From sequence record PV615261: DNA of 53,672 bases; one strand, 5' to 3'. This DNA comes from Shigella phage vB_Shi_2KOFFS. The number at the start of each line of letters is the position of its first letter. Positions within the stretch are counted from its first letter, which is position 1. Positions 763 through 51,352 of this stretch are shown here, piece after piece. Under the pieces are notes generated by a model. It was given only the letters and a program-made list of their open reading frames with translations, ran no database searches and was not told the origin of the DNA. The position numbers and the translations under genes are program-made.

Positions 763-1233
763 GTGGGCACAAAAGTGTTCGAAACAATGAAACTATCAAA
801 GCAGTATATTTACGACAGAGTTTCTAAACGTCAGGAACCTACTTGGCAAGTAGACACAGATGGGTATTTATCTGCTTCGATTACTTTGCCGGAAGGCACC
901 TTCAACGTAAGAAAACATATTCTTGTGTTCTACAAAACGAACGGATACATTCCAGATTTTGTAGACCATAAAGATAACAACAAATTAAACAATGCTCCGG
1001 ACAACTTGCGAGAAGCAAGCAAATGCCAGAACCAGCAGAACTCCAAGAAGCCAAAGAATAACTCCTCTGGCGTGAAGGGAGTGTCACGAACCAAACATGG
1101 CAAGTGGCAAGTTAATGTTATGGCATTTGGTGTGAAGCATTATGGTGGATTGTTTGACTCTCTAGAAGATGCCAAGCAACACGTAGAATCATTGCGAATG
1201 AAGTTGCATCGTGACTTTGCTCGTAGTGTGTAG
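763..1233 (+). CDS. HNH homing endonuclease with AP2-type DNA-binding domain
   Basis: HNH motif VDHKDNNKLNNAPDNLR and AP2-like block SSGVKGVSRTKHGKWQV...HYGGLF; start uncertain (GTG 763 or ATG 787). Confidence 0.8.
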   Translation: MGTKVFETMKLSKQYIYDRVSKRQEPTWQVDTDGYLSASITLPEGTFNVRKHILVFYKTNGYIPDFVDHKDNNKLNNAPDNLREASKCQNQQNSKKPKNNSSGVKGVSRTKHGKWQVNVMAFGVKHYGGLFDSLEDAKQHVESLRMKLHRDFARSV

Positions 1234-5082: not shown

Positions 5083-5143
5083 CAGAGTTGCTGCGCTGCA
5101 TGGTTCGCCCACCAGCGCGGCCCTCACTTTACAATAGTTGGAA

Positions 5144-5527
5144 ATGATGAAAATTTGTTCTAAGTGCAAAGTACCTCAAGATGAAGCAAACTTTCACAAG
5201 AGTTCATCTTGGTGTAAGCTTTGCAAGAAATTGAAGTATCGCGCAGAGTACAAATCTGCACCATTACCAGAGAAGCCTGTTCGTAATATTGAACGAGAGC
5301 GGGAACTAAATAAGGCAAGGTCTAAGAAACATGCAGAGTTAAATCCTAAGAAGCGTGCTGCCAGAGTCGCGGTACGTGGGATGATTCCTCCTGCACGTTG
5401 TATGGGGTGTTGCCAAGATAAGAAACTTGAAGCACATCACGACGACTACAATAAGCCAAAGGTTGTTCGTTGGCTTTGCAAAGAATGTCACACCCTGTGG
5501 CATATGAATAATACACCTATTGAATAG
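5144..5527 (+). CDS. HNH endonuclease (zinc-ribbon plus HNH)
   Basis: CSKCKV...CKLCKK zinc ribbon and C-terminal EAHHDDYNKPKVVRWLCKECHTLWH; paralogue of 46603..46995. Confidence 0.7.
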   Translation: MMKICSKCKVPQDEANFHKSSSWCKLCKKLKYRAEYKSAPLPEKPVRNIERERELNKARSKKHAELNPKKRAARVAVRGMIPPARCMGCCQDKKLEAHHDDYNKPKVVRWLCKECHTLWHMNNTPIE

Positions 5528-5540
5528 TTCGGAGCCTGAA

Positions 5541-7466
5541 ATGTTGTATCCTTACTCCAATATGTATGCTATGGATATTGAAACCACTGGCTTACTGGAC
5601 CAAATGAAGAAGCAAGAAGCACCGCGCTTGCACAACATGGGAATCATTGATGTTGTTTCTCGTGAAGAGAAGTGGACCGACAGAAAGTCTATCCAGGCAT
5701 TTCTGGATACAGGCCCAACATTAATCATGCACAACGGCGCAACCTTTGACTTTGAAGCACTGAGGTTCCTTGGCTACGACGTTTCAAAATGTACCTTAAT
5801 TGATACTTTGTTTATCAGTTGGTATCTGCAACCTCGTCGTGTTAAGCACGGCTTAGAAGGTTACGGCGAAGAGTTTGGTGTGCCAAAACCAGTCATTGAT
5901 GATTGGGAAAATCAAACTCAAGAAGAATACAACCATCGTGTGATGGAAGACTGCAAGATTCAGTTGAAGCTGTGGGAACAGCAATACATTCAACTCTTGA
6001 AGATTTATAAATCTCCTAGCGAAGTTAAGCGCTTCATTGAATACCTGATGACAAAAGCTCGTCAACAGGTTATTCAACAACGTACTCGCTGGAAGCTGAA
6101 CATTGAGAAGGCATTGGCATTTAAGGCCAAGCTGGAGCCAATGATTAAAGAGAAGACGGACGCATTGGAAGCATCAATGCCACGTATTCCAGAATATGTT
6201 ATCAAAACCCGTCCAGCTAAATGCCACAAGTTGAACGGACAATTATCTTCCGCTGGCATCAAGTGGAAAGCTATTTGTGATGCAAACGGTTTGGACTGGA
6301 AAGACCCAGACCTGGCTATCAAGGTTCTTAAAGGTTATAAGAATCCTAACGCTGGTTCTCATGTGCAAATTAAAGACTGGTTGTTCAGCTTAGGTTGGGA
6401 ACCGGAAACCTTTAAGTTTGACCGTAACAAGGAAACAGGTGAAACTCGCCAGATTCCACAAATCACTGTGAAGGATGAAGATGGCAATCCTGAAATATGT
6501 CCGAGCTTGCATAAGCTGGCGGAAAGAAACCCCGACTCTGGTATTCAACATCTTATTGGGATGGGCGTGTATAAACACCGTCTGTCTGTTGTTAATGGCT
6601 TCCTTCGCGACGTCGATGAAGATGGGTTCCTTACTGCACGATGCGGTGGCCTTACCAATACTTTACGCCTTAAACATCGCGAACTTGTTAACCTCCCTTC
6701 TATTCGTGTATTTGGCGGTGAAGAACTGCGTTCAATGTTGGAAGCGTGGCGCGAAGACTACGAACAGCTAGGCTCTGACTTGTGTTCTCTGGAAGACCGT
6801 TGTAAACACCACTTCCAGTGGATGTATGACCCTGAATACGTTAAGAAGCAGTTGGCACCAGACTATGATGCTCACCTTGCAATCGGCGTAATTGGTGGAT
6901 TTATTACTGAACAAGAGTCTCAGGACCACAAGGACGGAATTAAGAAGTGTAAACAACGTCCAATGTTTAAGACTACAAACTATGCTTGTCAGTATGGTGC
7001 TGGTGTGCCGACTGTAGCTCGTTCTGCTGGCTGTGACCAGACTACTGCTGCACGACTGCATAAAGCATATTGGGACTTGAACTGGTCTATTAAAGAGATT
7101 GCTGCAAACACCAAAGTTATCACAGTCGACGGTCAGATGTGGCAACAGAATCCAGTAAACAAATTCTGGTATTCATTGCGTACAGAGAAAGACCGCTTCT
7201 CCACATTGTGTCAGGGTACTGGTGCATATGTGTTTGATGTTTGGTGTAACAACATCATTGCAATTTGTAATGAACGTTGGGGCTGTGACCCACTTCTGTC
7301 CGGGCAATTCCACGATGAATTGATTCTCCAAGTTAAGAAAGGTTTCCGCGATTTGTGGACGGACTTGCTTAATGAGGCAATGGACCGAACCAACAAAGAA
7401 CTTAAACTTAACCGCGATTGTGCATGTGATGTACAGTTCGGTGATAACTACGCGGAGATTCACTAA
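5541..7466 (+). CDS. family A DNA polymerase with 3'-5' exonuclease domain
   Basis: Exo motifs MDIETTGL and HNGATFDFEAL; pol motif B KQRPMFKTTNYACQYGAG; motif C QFHDELIL; ATG 5541 after GGAG. Confidence 0.85.
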   Translation: MLYPYSNMYAMDIETTGLLDQMKKQEAPRLHNMGIIDVVSREEKWTDRKSIQAFLDTGPTLIMHNGATFDFEALRFLGYDVSKCTLIDTLFISWYLQPRRVKHGLEGYGEEFGVPKPVIDDWENQTQEEYNHRVMEDCKIQLKLWEQQYIQLLKIYKSPSEVKRFIEYLMTKARQQVIQQRTRWKLNIEKALAFKAKLEPMIKEKTDALEASMPRIPEYVIKTRPAKCHKLNGQLSSAGIKWKAICDANGLDWKDPDLAIKVLKGYKNPNAGSHVQIKDWLFSLGWEPETFKFDRNKETGETRQIPQITVKDEDGNPEICPSLHKLAERNPDSGIQHLIGMGVYKHRLSVVNGFLRDVDEDGFLTARCGGLTNTLRLKHRELVNLPSIRVFGGEELRSMLEAWREDYEQLGSDLCSLEDRCKHHFQWMYDPEYVKKQLAPDYDAHLAIGVIGGFITEQESQDHKDGIKKCKQRPMFKTTNYACQYGAGVPTVARSAGCDQTTAARLHKAYWDLNWSIKEIAANTKVITVDGQMWQQNPVNKFWYSLRTEKDRFSTLCQGTGAYVFDVWCNNIIAICNERWGCDPLLSGQFHDELILQVKKGFRDLWTDLLNEAMDRTNKELKLNRDCACDVQFGDNYAEIH

Positions 7467-7722: not shown

Positions 7723-8586
7723 ATGGCATTTGCTGCTCCTACCCTGGCCTCGAACAAGACTCCTTCTGCTGCACCATTACTGGAAGCGGGTGGTTATCCT
7801 GCTCGTGTTTGCCGTATTATCGACCTGGGCTTACAGCCTGGTTCTGCTAAATATCCTACTCCGTCTCTGAAACTTCTGGTTACTTTCGAACTGCTCGATG
7901 AGTACATGAAAGAAGTTGACAGTGAAGGTAAAATGGTCATGGTTCAAGACCCAGACGAAGATGACGGCATCATGATGGCGAAGAATCTTGAAGACAAGCC
8001 ACGTTGGTTTGACTTTGAGTTTACCTATAATGCTGACGGCTTCATGGGTGAGAACTCCCACATCTACAAATTCGCTAAGGCGATTGATGCACTGGAAGTT
8101 AAACCTAATCTGGAACAAGGCATTCAGGGCCATCCTGCCAAGAACCTGCCAGACTGGTTGGGCGAACCTCTGATTGTTGGCATTGTTCAATATACCAAGC
8201 AGTCAGGCAAGAATGCTGGCCAGGTTGCGAACAAAGTTGCTACCTTCTCCCCGATGAAGTCTAAGGAGAAGAAAGAGGCTAAAGCTCTGGTTAACCCGAC
8301 TGTCTTCTTCGACATGTCTGAGCCGGACCTGGAAGTATTCAACAAACTGCCAGGTGGCGAATCCCCGTATGCAATCAAGAACCGTATCACTTCTGGTGTT
8401 GATTTCTACAAGACTAAGCTGTCTGCACTGTTAGGCGGTAAACCTGCTGATGAAGGTACTGTACCTAATCAGGCTTCTGATGAAGAAGTTGATGCAGCCA
8501 TGAAAGCTGAACTGGAAGCACAGGCTGCTGCAAAAGCACAGCGTGAAGCCGAAGGTGGTGCAAGCACGTCTGCTATGCCGTTCTAA
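7723..8586 (+). CDS. hypothetical protein, possible ssDNA-binding or annealing protein
   Basis: Optimised codon usage; sits between polymerase and 5'-3' exonuclease; Ala/Glu-rich C-terminus ending MPF; function is inference. Confidence 0.55.
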   Translation: MAFAAPTLASNKTPSAAPLLEAGGYPARVCRIIDLGLQPGSAKYPTPSLKLLVTFELLDEYMKEVDSEGKMVMVQDPDEDDGIMMAKNLEDKPRWFDFEFTYNADGFMGENSHIYKFAKAIDALEVKPNLEQGIQGHPAKNLPDWLGEPLIVGIVQYTKQSGKNAGQVANKVATFSPMKSKEKKEAKALVNPTVFFDMSEPDLEVFNKLPGGESPYAIKNRITSGVDFYKTKLSALLGGKPADEGTVPNQASDEEVDAAMKAELEAQAAAKAQREAEGGASTSAMPF

Positions 8587-8594
8587 TTATAAAT

Positions 8595-9656
8595 ATGGCT
8601 CCTTCGGGAGCCTTTAATTTGGAGCTTACCAAAGTGAGTAAGAAACGAGTTTTGTTGCTGGTTGACGGCGACATGGTTGCATTCAGTCACTGTGCTGCTG
8701 AGGAATACGGCAAAGATTCAGAAGATATTAACTTTGCTAAGATTCAAATGTCAATGGATTCCAAGATGGAATTCCTTGCGAAACGCGTGGGAGCTACAGA
8801 AGTAGTCACCTGCATTTCACCATCCAAAACATTCCGTAATGTTCTTGCCGAGAATTACAAAGGCAATCGTGATGACGTGTGGCGACCAGAAAACTTAAAG
8901 AATGCGAAAGCACATCTTATGGTTGCCTGGAATGGTGTATGGATGAAGGGTCTGGAAGCAGATGACCTTCTTGCTGTATTCGCACGTCATGAATACGAAA
9001 TGACAATGGGCAAACGTAATGAGATTAAGAGCCTCAAGCGCATTGGTCCTTGCACATATGATGAAGTCTGGATTGCGTCGCTGGACAAAGACTTGCGACA
9101 AATCGGGCAGAATGGTGGTGCTGGTCCGGTAATTAAACATTACCAATGGGAACGAGAAACCCAGGGTATTGGTGAGAAGGTTGTAACTCCGCAGGATTAC
9201 GGCGAACTCAAATTAATCATCAAGGACAATGGCAAATCGAAGAAGAAAGAAGTTAAAGGCAATGGCCCTAAATTCTTCTTGCATCAATTGCTTATTGGCG
9301 ACTCAACGGATAACGTTATGGGTTGCGGAGTTCTTGAAGAAAGAATCTACAAAACTGGTGCCAAAGCTGGAGAAACTTATTTCCGTCGTGATGGTATTGG
9401 TGCAGTTGCTTCATTCGAAATGCTGGATGGTACAACCTCCTATGCAGAAGGTTTGAAGAAAGTTATTGGTGCATACATTATGCGCTTCGGAGATGGTTGG
9501 GAACAAGAGCTACTCAAAGTGGGCCGTCTTGTTTACATGCACCATCAAATTGAAAAGGGTAATTGTGTTCGCTTGTGGCATTACAAGAACATTAACGAAT
9601 ACTTTGACCTTAAAGAGAATCGTATCCTCACTCAAGAAGAGTACCTCCAGAAATAA
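8595..9656 (+). CDS. 5'-3' exonuclease / flap endonuclease (FEN, PIN-like)
   Basis: Motifs LLLVDGDMVAF, GLEADDLLAV and SLDKDLRQI matching the Pol I 5'-nuclease / T5 D15 family. Confidence 0.8.
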   Translation: MAPSGAFNLELTKVSKKRVLLLVDGDMVAFSHCAAEEYGKDSEDINFAKIQMSMDSKMEFLAKRVGATEVVTCISPSKTFRNVLAENYKGNRDDVWRPENLKNAKAHLMVAWNGVWMKGLEADDLLAVFARHEYEMTMGKRNEIKSLKRIGPCTYDEVWIASLDKDLRQIGQNGGAGPVIKHYQWERETQGIGEKVVTPQDYGELKLIIKDNGKSKKKEVKGNGPKFFLHQLLIGDSTDNVMGCGVLEERIYKTGAKAGETYFRRDGIGAVASFEMLDGTTSYAEGLKKVIGAYIMRFGDGWEQELLKVGRLVYMHHQIEKGNCVRLWHYKNINEYFDLKENRILTQEEYLQK

Positions 9657-46130: not shown

Positions 46131-46148
46131 ACATTAGTTGGATTTGAA
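46131..46148 (+). promoter_or_regulatory. conserved promoter-like motif copy
   Basis: ACATTAGTTGGATtTGAA, 75 nt upstream of 46223. Confidence 0.45.
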
Positions 46149-46222: not shown

Positions 46223-46603
46223 ATGGCACAATATTCAGATGTAAACACTGGCATCATCGGTCCTAACGGCTTCAAGAAAGACCCAAAACATCCTGACATT
46301 CGTGGACGTATTAACGTTGACGGAATCTGGTATTGGGTGTCTGGTTGGAACAAGCAAGCCAATGGTAATGAATTTACCTCACTTGCATTAACCATCATGA
46401 CCCAAGAACAGGTTGATGAAATGATGCGTAAGCGTGAAGAGAAGGCTAAAGCCAAAGCTCAACCTCAAGCTGCCGCTCAACAGCAACAGCAACGCCAGCA
46501 ACCTTCTGCACAACAGCAAGCACCTGCTCAACAGCAAGCTCCGCAGTCATCTGGATACAACCCAAATGAGCCGCAGGACTTTGATAGCGACATACCATTC
46601 TGA
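46223..46603 (+). CDS. small protein with Gln-rich linker and SSB-type acidic C-terminal tail (DFDSDIPF)
   Basis: 126 aa; about 60-aa beta-rich N-terminus, Lys/Ala helix, QQQ-rich linker, terminal PQDFDSDIPF resembling the bacterial SSB C-terminal peptide. Confidence 0.6.
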   Translation: MAQYSDVNTGIIGPNGFKKDPKHPDIRGRINVDGIWYWVSGWNKQANGNEFTSLALTIMTQEQVDEMMRKREEKAKAKAQPQAAAQQQQQRQQPSAQQQAPAQQQAPQSSGYNPNEPQDFDSDIPF

Positions 46604-46995
46604 TGAATAAGGTCTGTAAAATCTGTGGGAGTTTAAAAGCTCCTACAGACTTCTATCGGAATGACAGGACATGTAAAGTTTGCCGTTGCGCCAAAGTACG
46701 TGCAAACCGTGCAGCAAAGATTGACCATTATCGCAAGTATGAACGAAAACGCGGTTATCATGGTAACGGCCTTAATGATGCCAGGAAGAAATATCCAAAT
46801 CAATATAAGGCCCAAACTGCTGTAAACAATGCTATTCGAGATGGACGATTACAGGCAAAACCTTGTCAAGTGTGCGGTTGCATTATATCTCATGCCCACC
46901 ATGATGATTACAACAAGCCTCTTGATGTTCGCTGGTTGTGTCCTCGCCACCACAATGAGTGGCACGCCGAAAACGGAGAGGGACTTAATCGATGA
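46603..46995 (+). CDS. HNH endonuclease (zinc-ribbon plus HNH)
   Basis: CKICGS...CKVCRC and HAHHDDYNKPLDVRWLCPRHHNEWH; paralogue of 5144..5527. Confidence 0.7.
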   Translation: MNKVCKICGSLKAPTDFYRNDRTCKVCRCAKVRANRAAKIDHYRKYERKRGYHGNGLNDARKKYPNQYKAQTAVNNAIRDGRLQAKPCQVCGCIISHAHHDDYNKPLDVRWLCPRHHNEWHAENGEGLNR

Positions 46996-51031: not shown

Positions 51032-51352
51032 ATGATTCGCAAGCATTCTGCTAAAGTTTTGACATTAAGAAATGTACTAATGTCTTCGCCAAGTGGGGAA
51101 GAGGAGGAAGAAACAATCCACTTCGTTCTCGTTGGCGGGCGTTGGTATTACAACGGGACCAATAACTTCACCGTAGGAATTTCGGAGAAAGATGGGTTCT
51201 GGAAGCACACTTTCAAAGACATACTCGAATGTAGTGCTAAATACACCCTTGCAGAAGTTAAGAAATATTTCTACTGCGGCCCAAACAAGTCCATGCAAAT
51301 CGCAACTCGCAATTGGACAACAAACCAACCAGTTTACGGAGTTCCATTTTGA
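51032..51352 (+). CDS. hypothetical protein (106 aa)
   Basis: ATG after GGAGAG. Confidence 0.5.
   Translation: MIRKHSAKVLTLRNVLMSSPSGEEEEETIHFVLVGGRWYYNGTNNFTVGISEKDGFWKHTFKDILECSAKYTLAEVKKYFYCGPNKSMQIATRNWTTNQPVYGVPF

What the first reader, a model, noticed from the sequence alone, without database searches (positions are those of the whole stretch)
46223..46603. Small early protein ending in the SSB C-terminal tail motif (...PQDFDSDIPF)
The 126-aa protein has a short beta-rich N-terminal region (too short for a standard SSB OB-fold), a Lys/Ala-rich helix, a Gln-rich flexible linker, and a C-terminus DFDSDIPF that closely resembles the conserved acidic tip of bacterial SSB (DDDIPF). That tip is the docking peptide for many host replication and repair proteins. 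The protein could be a minimal phage SSB or a decoy that competes for SSB-interacting partners. It has its own promoter-like motif at 46131.
Basis: partly seen in the sequence, partly recalled or inferred. Interest (0 to 1): 0.6.

Follow-up and report, generated by a model that had tools for sequence, protein, structure and literature searches.

The report
Non-OB mini SSB-like phage protein
A real, conserved 126-residue phage gene joins a tiny all-beta domain that is not the usual SSB fold to an almost exact copy of the host SSB's partner-docking tail; databases already call it an SSB, but nobody has tested this, and the phage carries a second SSB-like gene.

Summary
ORF 46223..46603 (+) encodes 126 aa ending NEPQDFDSDIPF, with an exact copy of the phage-RNAP promoter at 46131-46147. 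The window is a phiEcoM-GJ1-like Chaseviridae genome. This gene has been annotated "putative SSB" since the GJ1 record and falls in PHROG 7364.

- **Family.** At least 1,957 clusters (50% identity) of mostly 80-170-aa proteins. Most combine this roughly 55-residue beta unit, a variable linker and a [DE]-rich xPF tip.
- **Relatives.** Some reach the Pfam threshold for DUF736 (function unknown).
- **Tandem members.** These are predicted to form an 8-stranded beta-barrel, which suggests that single-domain members dimerise.
- **Context.** Members sit beside PolA, helicases or exo-ERF modules.

The "only SSB in the genome" argument fails. ORF 7723..8586, between PolA and the 5'-3' exonuclease, also ends in xPF, and its Zobellviridae homologues end in DDDIPW.

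Best reading (about 0.5): a non-OB mini-SSB that binds ssDNA and recruits SSB-interacting proteins. Decoy and adaptor readings remain open. ssDNA binding is inferred, not shown.

The parts
46131..46147 (+). Phage-RNAP promoter motif ACATTAGTTGGATTTGA, 76 nt upstream of the start codon
   Evidence: Exact match to the consensus. Nine copies in the window, all on the + strand, against 0.05 expected. Homologous to 'putative phage promoter 3' of phiEcoM-GJ1.
46223..46603 (+). CDS of 126 aa (stop included), the SSB-like protein
   Evidence: ORF list. PHROG 7364 'single strand DNA binding protein' at E 1e-44. Annotated as SSB in GJ1, flopper, ST32 and others.
46223..46402 (+). Residues 1-60: four-stranded beta unit, the conserved family core (G10, N15, K18, H23-P24-D25, G28, G34, Y37, W38, S40, W42, K44, G48, F51, S53, L54)
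   Evidence: AF2 pLDDT about 90. Family column statistics. Relatives match the DUF736 profile at positions 26-73. No OB-fold signal.
46403..46477 (+). Residues 61-85: helix (MTQEQVDEMMRKREEKAKAKA...). It is conserved in the Chaseviridae subfamily and absent from many short relatives.
   Evidence: AF2 helices 61-79 and 81-85. T57, M59, T60, Q61, V64 and D65 are invariant in A1. The helix is missing in P0091, P0097, P0103, P0108 and others.
46478..46573 (+). Residues 86-117: Gln/Pro/Ala-rich disordered linker
   Evidence: pLDDT below 50. Length and sequence vary among relatives. Compositionally aligned to the E. coli SSB linker by tblastn with composition correction switched off.
46574..46600 (+). 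Residues 118-126: QDFDSDIPF, the counterpart of the 9-residue E. coli SSB acidic tip MDFDDDIPF
   Evidence: Alignment to PDB SSB chains 7f2n and 1eqq. Invariant F-D-x-x-I-P-F in relatives. Tail census.

Best explanation
The gene encodes the Chaseviridae member of a large, experimentally uncharacterised family of phage and mobile-element 'mini-SSB' proteins.

A roughly 55-residue, net-basic, aromatic-rich four-stranded beta unit (related to the core of DUF736, not to the OB fold) is inferred to pair with a second copy into an 8-stranded barrel and to bind single-stranded DNA. A disordered Gln-rich linker then presents a C-terminal tip that copies the host SSB tip (QDFDSDIPF against MDFDDDIPF).

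The gene is transcribed from its own phage-RNAP promoter. The protein would coat phage replication and recombination intermediates. Through the tip it would recruit proteins that dock on SSB-Ct: host SSB-interacting proteins, or phage replisome and recombination proteins.

Shown:
- the gene, its promoter motif and the conservation of the tip;
- the architecture and the non-OB prediction;
- the family size and the replication/recombination neighbourhoods.

Inferred: dimerisation, ssDNA binding and partner recruitment.
For: Architecture:
- A basic domain, a disordered linker and an acidic xPF tip occur family-wide. Domain net charge has mean +1.6 and is positive in 76% of members. The C-terminal remainder has mean -2.2.
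- K18 is K/R in 98% of members and K44 in 89%. Y37, W38, W42 and F51 are aromatic in 85-100%.
- The tip is conserved across at least 1,957 clusters.

Context. The gene fills the position where an SSB gene usually sits in replication and recombination modules:
- directly beside PolA in three Z-genome phage lineages;
- near a PolA/UvrD/primase module;
- two genes after YqaJ exonuclease and ERF;
- in the early replication region of a temperate phage.

In this genome the gene has a consensus phage promoter. No canonical SSB OB domain is detectable in the window.

Precedent: the last six residues of the phage HK620 SSB are needed to load its partner Sak4 (PMC5928155).
Against: - No member has been tested for DNA binding, as far as the searchable literature shows.
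- The 'SSB' annotation may derive only from tail similarity.
- The phage has a second candidate SSB in the PolA-exonuclease slot, at 7723..8586, whose Zobellviridae homologues carry DDDIPW tips. The small protein is therefore not needed to explain phage SSB function.
- Some family members lack the tip.
- A natural variant extends the ORF 13 codons beyond the terminal Phe.
Confidence: 0.5

Rival explanations
1. SSB-Ct decoy or competitor. The beta domain does not bind DNA. The abundant early/middle protein displays the host SSB tip in solution and titrates SSB-interacting proteins (ExoI, RecQ, RecJ, PriA, the chi subunit and others) away from host SSB. This would shut down host replication restart or repair, or blunt defences that depend on them.
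For: The tip is nearly identical to the host's, and fully identical (PMDFDDDIPF) in 25 of 121 relatives. No known DNA-binding fold was detected. A separate SSB-like protein exists in the replication module. The gene lies among early host-takeover-type small genes rather than in the replication cluster.
Against: - A decoy needs no conserved basic and aromatic beta domain, yet that domain is the most conserved part of a family of about 2,000 clusters.
- Tail-less members keep the domain.
- In other lineages the gene sits immediately beside PolA or after exo/ERF.
- It also occurs in temperate phages and integrated elements, where host shut-off is not expected.
Confidence: 0.15
2. Tip-donating adaptor. 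The beta domain binds another phage protein or a DNA structure other than ssDNA, for example the 287-aa PolA-adjacent protein whose own tip has lost its acidic residues in Chaseviridae. It would supply the SSB-Ct in trans and so link the phage replisome to host SSB-interacting proteins.
For: All Chaseviridae examined carry both genes. Their 287-aa proteins end in non-acidic xPF (MPF, QPF, VPF, IPF). In Zobellviridae, where no small-family hit appeared among the listed matches of the phage-record search, the homologues end in DDDIPW or FDDDLPW.
Against: - This rests purely on correlation. The co-occurrence table comes from partial hit lists.
- phiVC8-like and other Z-genome phages have the small family beside PolA, with no 287-aa family gene in the flanking 8-10 kb examined.
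- There is no interaction evidence.
Confidence: 0.12
3. Ordinary OB-fold SSB: a divergent but canonical member of the bacterial/phage SSB family, with nothing unusual about it.
For: Database annotation as SSB. Canonical linker and tip.
Against: - No PF00436 hit, or any other SSB Pfam hit, even at E up to 10.
- hhalign probability of 0.3% against the E. coli SSB OB domain.
- tblastn with E. coli SSB matches only the linker and tip.
- AF2 gives four strands and a helix in 60-80 residues.
Confidence: 0.03

Closest known systems
Bacterial SSB (E. coli SSB, PF00436; PDB 1eqq, 7f2n)
   Same: Modular plan of a DNA-binding domain, a Gln/Pro/Gly-rich disordered linker and an acidic tip. The tip QDFDSDIPF differs from MDFDDDIPF at two positions, and many relatives are identical over 10-14 residues.
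   Different: The N-terminal domain is about 60 residues and is not an OB fold. It has no sequence or profile similarity to the SSB OB domain. It is predicted to pair as a half-barrel rather than form an OB tetramer. No DNA-level similarity to E. coli genomes was found.
DUF736 (PF05284), a backbone gene of conjugative elements such as msi110 of ICEMlSymR7A
   Same: The core beta unit is homologous. 29 of 143 family representatives hit the model (best E 3.5e-7). Three that were tested individually exceed the gathering score, matching profile positions 26-73. A DUF736 phage protein also appears among the BFVD structural matches.
   Different: The window protein itself does not hit the model. Only the central half of DUF736 is shared. 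From my own recollection, which I did not test here, DUF736 proteins lack the linker and SSB-Ct tip. The function of DUF736 is unknown (PMC8627217).
PC4-like ssDNA-binding fold (human PC4 1pcf, phage T5 PC4 homologue 4bg7, Pur-alpha, YdbC)
Phage T7 gp2.5 and phage HK620 SSB
   Same: Both are phage SSBs whose acidic C-terminal tail ends in an aromatic residue that is required for partner loading. For HK620, deleting the last 6 residues abolishes Sak4 loading (PMC5928155). For gp2.5 this is established knowledge.
   Different: gp2.5 is a 232-aa OB-fold protein (established knowledge). The HK620 SSB is described as a distant SSB homologue with a 21-kDa monomer that elutes as an apparent tetramer. 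The present protein is half that size, with an unrelated predicted domain.

Membership tests
Bacterial/phage OB-fold SSB (PF00436) | N-terminal OB-fold domain recognisable by the family profile | tested here: not met
   [not shown]
Bacterial/phage OB-fold SSB (PF00436) | Disordered linker followed by an acidic tip ending in IPF | tested here: met
   pLDDT is below 50 for most of 85-126. The tip DFDSDIPF aligns to PDB SSB tips and is invariant in relatives.
Bacterial/phage OB-fold SSB (PF00436) | Preferential, cooperative binding to ssDNA | not testable with these tools
   Only indirect evidence: the domain is net basic and has conserved aromatic and Lys positions.
DUF736 (PF05284) | Score above the Pfam gathering threshold (22.1 bits) | tested here: not met
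   The window protein gives no hit. Relatives P0144, P0156 and P0168 score 22.6-24.7 bits, and 29 of 143 representatives hit at E up to 1. The protein is related to the family but is not itself a recognisable member.
DUF736 (PF05284) | Coverage of the whole 99-position domain | tested here: not met
   Matches cover profile positions 26-73 only.
PC4-like fold (beta-beta-beta-beta-alpha, dimeric ssDNA binders) | Four antiparallel strands followed by a helix | tested here: met
   AF2: strands 9-14, 26-32, 35-46 and 49-60, then helix 61-79.
PC4-like fold (beta-beta-beta-beta-alpha, dimeric ssDNA binders) | Significant structural or profile similarity to family members | tested here: inconclusive
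   [not shown]
PC4-like fold (beta-beta-beta-beta-alpha, dimeric ssDNA binders) | The helix is an integral, conserved part of the fold | tested here: not met
   Many family members go straight from strand 4 into the linker. The tandem member is predicted to be all-beta.
PHROG 7364 ('single strand DNA binding protein') | Significant match to the PHROG profile | tested here: met
   E 1e-44, residues 1-91. The functional label of the PHROG is an annotation, not a tested function.

The most novel reading that the evidence does not exclude
This is the type example, in a cultivable E. coli phage, of a previously unrecognised structural class of SSB. The class is a DUF736-related four-stranded half-barrel that dimerises, or is duplicated in tandem, into an 8-stranded barrel and is fused to a host-type SSB-Ct tip. 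It spans about 2,000 protein clusters in phages and mobile elements and is the polymerase-adjacent SSB of several Z-genome (PurZ) phage lineages. If so, DUF736 of conjugative elements would also be an ssDNA-handling domain.
Probability: 0.4. Interest if true: 0.7.

Novelty: new variant of a known kind. Interest (0 to 1): 0.55.

Why it matters
SSBs are the hubs of bacterial replication, recombination and repair. Their C-terminal tip is the docking peptide for nearly twenty host proteins (at least 17 in E. coli; PMC7145534, listed).

If this family binds ssDNA, then phages have rebuilt the hub on an unrelated 55-residue scaffold, the smallest such design I know of.

- It would assign a function to DUF736, a core gene of many conjugative elements.
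- It would identify the SSB partner of the DpoZ polymerases of diaminopurine-genome phages.

If the protein is instead a decoy or adaptor, it would be a way of hijacking the SSB interactome for which I found no precedent in the literature searched here.

Either outcome bears on recombineering portability, because annealase function depends on the SSB tip. It also bears on defence systems that sense phage SSBs (from my own knowledge; not checked here). The protein is small, soluble-looking and encoded by a phage of E. coli K-12, so the tests are easy.

Tried and rejected
1. **Canonical OB-fold SSB.** Rejected.
3. **Shiga toxin B subunit.** There is a local match at VDGKEYWTSRWN (E 0.04-0.15; Pfam SLT_beta in 3 of 143 members). 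I judged it to be chance.
4. **Recent capture of the tail from the host ssb gene.** blastn of the gene against 5,426 E. coli genomes found nothing. The protein-level linker match used uncorrected composition.
5. **'Sole SSB in the genome' argument.** Abandoned after finding ORF 7723..8586.
6. **Is the 287-aa protein gp2.5-like?** There is no Pfam hit and no PDB sequence or profile hit. 
7. **P0122.** This 1,158-aa hit with 21 'domains' in the exhaustive search is a spurious low-complexity repeat, GYWYSSWLQQ.
8. **afdb50 fold library.** It was unavailable.
9. **Literature searches.** Searches on experimental work on this family, DUF736 function, Chaseviridae SSB, phiVC8 SSB and SSB-Ct mimicry by phages found nothing specific.

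The human PC4 sequence was verified as identical to 1pcf. The C-terminus of the typed E. coli SSB sequence agrees with PDB chains.

Full report
**1. Observation**

ORF 46223..46603 (+) is present exactly as described and encodes 126 aa ending GYNPNEPQDFDSDIPF.

An AlphaFold2 model built on 17 relatives gives four beta strands (9-14, 26-32, 35-46, 49-60). It also gives a helix at 61-79/81-85 that contains the Lys/Ala-rich stretch. Most of residues 85-126, the Gln-rich linker and tip, are low-confidence. pLDDT is about 90 for residues 10-65.

The promoter-like motif is real. ACATTAGTTGGATTTGA at 46131-46147 is an exact copy of a 17-mer found nine times in the window with up to 2 mismatches. All copies are on the + strand, against 0.05 expected. 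It matches the 'putative phage promoter 3' annotated upstream of the same gene in phiEcoM-GJ1.

**2. What the window is**

The region is 86-91% identical to phiEcoM-GJ1-like myophages (Chaseviridae, Carltongylesvirus) of E. coli and Yersinia. These phages encode a single-subunit RNA polymerase, a T7-type primase/helicase, PolA, a 5'-3' exonuclease and a ligase.

The gene is annotated '(putative) single-stranded DNA-binding protein' in nearly all annotated relatives. It matches PHROG 7364, labelled SSB, at E 1e-44. At the level of database labels the finding is therefore not new.

**3. The tail**

F120, D121, I124, P125 and F126 are invariant in relatives of 59-99% identity, whereas the linker has indels and substitutions.

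The tail aligns to the C-termini of solved enterobacterial SSBs (7f2n ...NEPPMDFDDDIPF; 1eqq) and to nothing else in those proteins.

| Set | End in [ILVMP]P[FWY] | Other |
|---|---|---|
| 121 word-search relatives | 105 | 25 end in PMDFDDDIPF |
| 142 distant cluster representatives | 86 | 109 end in an aromatic residue |

I found no DNA similarity to any of 5,426 E. coli genomes, so there is no sign of recent capture from the host.

**4. The N-terminal domain is not an OB fold**

- There is no Pfam hit for the protein or for 30 diverse relatives, other than low-complexity noise.
- There is no PDB sequence or profile hit to the domain.
- hhalign of a 45-sequence domain profile against the E. 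coli SSB OB domain gives 0.3%.
- tblastn with E. coli SSB finds only the linker and tip of this ORF in the whole window.

**5. What the domain is related to**

An exhaustive profile search found 1,957 cluster representatives at E up to 1e-3. Their median length is 102 aa.

Scanning 143 of them against Pfam gave DUF736 (PF05284) for 29, with a best E of 3.5e-7. Three that I tested individually exceed the gathering score, matching profile positions 26-73 of 99.

DUF736 is a universally present backbone gene of Mesorhizobium conjugative elements, and its function is unknown (PMC8627217).

The family core is about 55 residues. The following positions are nearly invariant: G10, N15, K18, H23-P24-D25, G28, G34, Y37, W38, S40, W42, K44, G48, F51, S53 and L54. 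The domain is net basic and the remainder of the protein is net acidic.

**6. Fold class**

hhalign against human PC4 gave 67-75%, above all 300 shuffles. The PC4 sequence was verified as identical to 1pcf. The signal vanishes with MoSub1 (0.1%) and ScSub1 (2%) and falls to 37% with a three-sequence profile.

Many family members lack the helix altogether.

I conclude that the unit is a half-barrel that needs a partner copy. Its relationship to PC4-like proteins is unresolved. No solved structure is a close match.

**7. Genomic context of relatives**

- P0112: UvrD helicase, then the gene, two small genes and PolA, followed by PurZ, MazZ and DatZ.
- P0138: the gene, then PolA, PrimPol and PurZ.
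- P0274: UvrD, PolA, then the gene, PurZ, MazZ and DatZ.
- P0108: close to a divergently transcribed PolA/UvrD/AEP-primase module.
- P0121: YqaJ exonuclease and ERF, two small genes, then the gene.
- P0103: the early replication region of a temperate phage.
- P0091: an integrated element with a DEAD-box helicase.
- Tail-less P0120: beside a T7-like RNA polymerase.

This is where SSB genes usually sit. It is the strongest indirect evidence for an ssDNA-related role.

**8. A complication: a second SSB-like gene**

ORF 7723..8586 (287 aa) lies between PolA (5520..7466) and the 5'-3' exonuclease (8595..9656). It ends ...AEGGASTSAMPF.

It is 'hypothetical' in all 172 phage records that carry it. 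It has no Pfam hit and no PDB hit. It belongs to PHROGs of unknown function. One of these, phrog_2544, also weakly matched the linker and tail of the 126-aa protein.

In Zobellviridae its homologues occupy the same slot between PolA and the exonuclease. They end in DDDIPW, FDDDLPW or DDIPW (CVT22 ends in NQNPW). Chaseviridae homologues end in a non-acidic xPF, or ...DDPFA in Aeromonas phage LA93P1.

The phage therefore has two proteins with SSB-like architecture. The argument 'this is the only SSB, so it must be the SSB' is not available.

**9. Interpretation**

I favour a non-OB mini-SSB that binds ssDNA as a dimer and uses a host-type tip to recruit SSB-Ct-binding proteins (confidence about 0.5). 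The reasons are:

- the domain, not only the tip, is under strong family-wide conservation;
- tail-less members exist;
- the basic domain with an acidic tail matches the SSB design;
- the gene sits beside polymerases and annealases.

A soluble decoy (0.15) and a tip-donating adaptor for another phage protein (0.12) are not excluded. A canonical OB-fold SSB is essentially excluded (0.03).

ssDNA binding, dimerisation and partner recruitment are inferences. I found no experimental work on the family.

**10. Novelty**

The label 'SSB' is old. The following appear not to be described in the literature I could search:

- the non-OB, DUF736-related half-barrel domain;
- the size of the family;
- its link to polymerase-adjacent genes of Z-genome phages;
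- the coexistence with a second tip-bearing protein.

I rate it a new variant of a known kind, with moderate interest (0.55).

Noticed in passing
window 7723..8586 (+): A 287-aa 'hypothetical' protein between PolA and the 5'-3' exonuclease has a roughly 230-aa conserved domain, an acidic/Ala-rich linker and a C-terminal ...AMPF. Zobellviridae homologues in the same slot end in DDDIPW or FDDDLPW. It is probably an unrecognised phage SSB or annealase family (phrog_862/6599/2544). It has no Pfam or PDB match.
   Followed up: partly
window 46603..46995 (+); L030:2790-3375: An HNH endonuclease gene (phrog_2340) starts on the last base of the SSB stop codon (TGATG) and is absent from phiEcoM-GJ1. 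In another genome (L030; proteins P0013 and P0014) a different HNH-type insertion at the same point replaces the stop codon. This extends the SSB-like ORF by 13 codons (…IPFAPIGLQEGRRYLHCI) and buries the terminal Phe.
   Followed up: partly
window 5138..5527 (+) and 763..1233 (+): Two more HNH endonuclease ORFs. The first is a paralogue of the one next to the SSB gene (the same phrog_2340). It sits just upstream of the DNA polymerase and has a degenerate promoter-like motif at 5131. The second matches phrog_99.
   Followed up: no
window 5131, 39420, 41633, 41894, 42766, 46131, 50241, 50381, 52345 (+): Nine copies of the phage promoter motif ACATTAGTTGGATNTGA with up to 2 mismatches, all on the + strand, against 0.05 expected by chance. 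They cluster in the early/middle region downstream of the RNA polymerase gene.
   Followed up: partly
L006:10001-10477, L032:4228-4536, contig, and phage records phiVC8/VP5/JSF9 and Acinetobacter phages: The small SSB-like family sits next to, or two small genes from, PolA in at least three lineages of phages that carry PurZ, DatZ and MazZ (diaminopurine 'Z' genomes). It may be the SSB partner of DpoZ.
   Followed up: partly
[not shown]
   Followed up: yes
L031:4173-4457 (P0120) and P0094, P0099, P0101, P0107, P0141: This subfamily has an N-terminal extension and the helix but no linker or acidic tip (it ends ...TEMTAEDIEKYVK). One example lies next to a T7-like RNA polymerase gene.
   Followed up: no
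window 51032..51352 (+): A third ORF in the window ends in xPF (…NQPVYGVPF), without an acidic or disordered-looking tail. This is probably coincidental.
   Followed up: no
P0122: The second-best hit of the exhaustive search is a 1,158-aa protein made of 21 near-identical 52-residue repeats containing GYWYSSW. It is a spurious match to the WYWVSGW motif and not a relative.
   Followed up: yes
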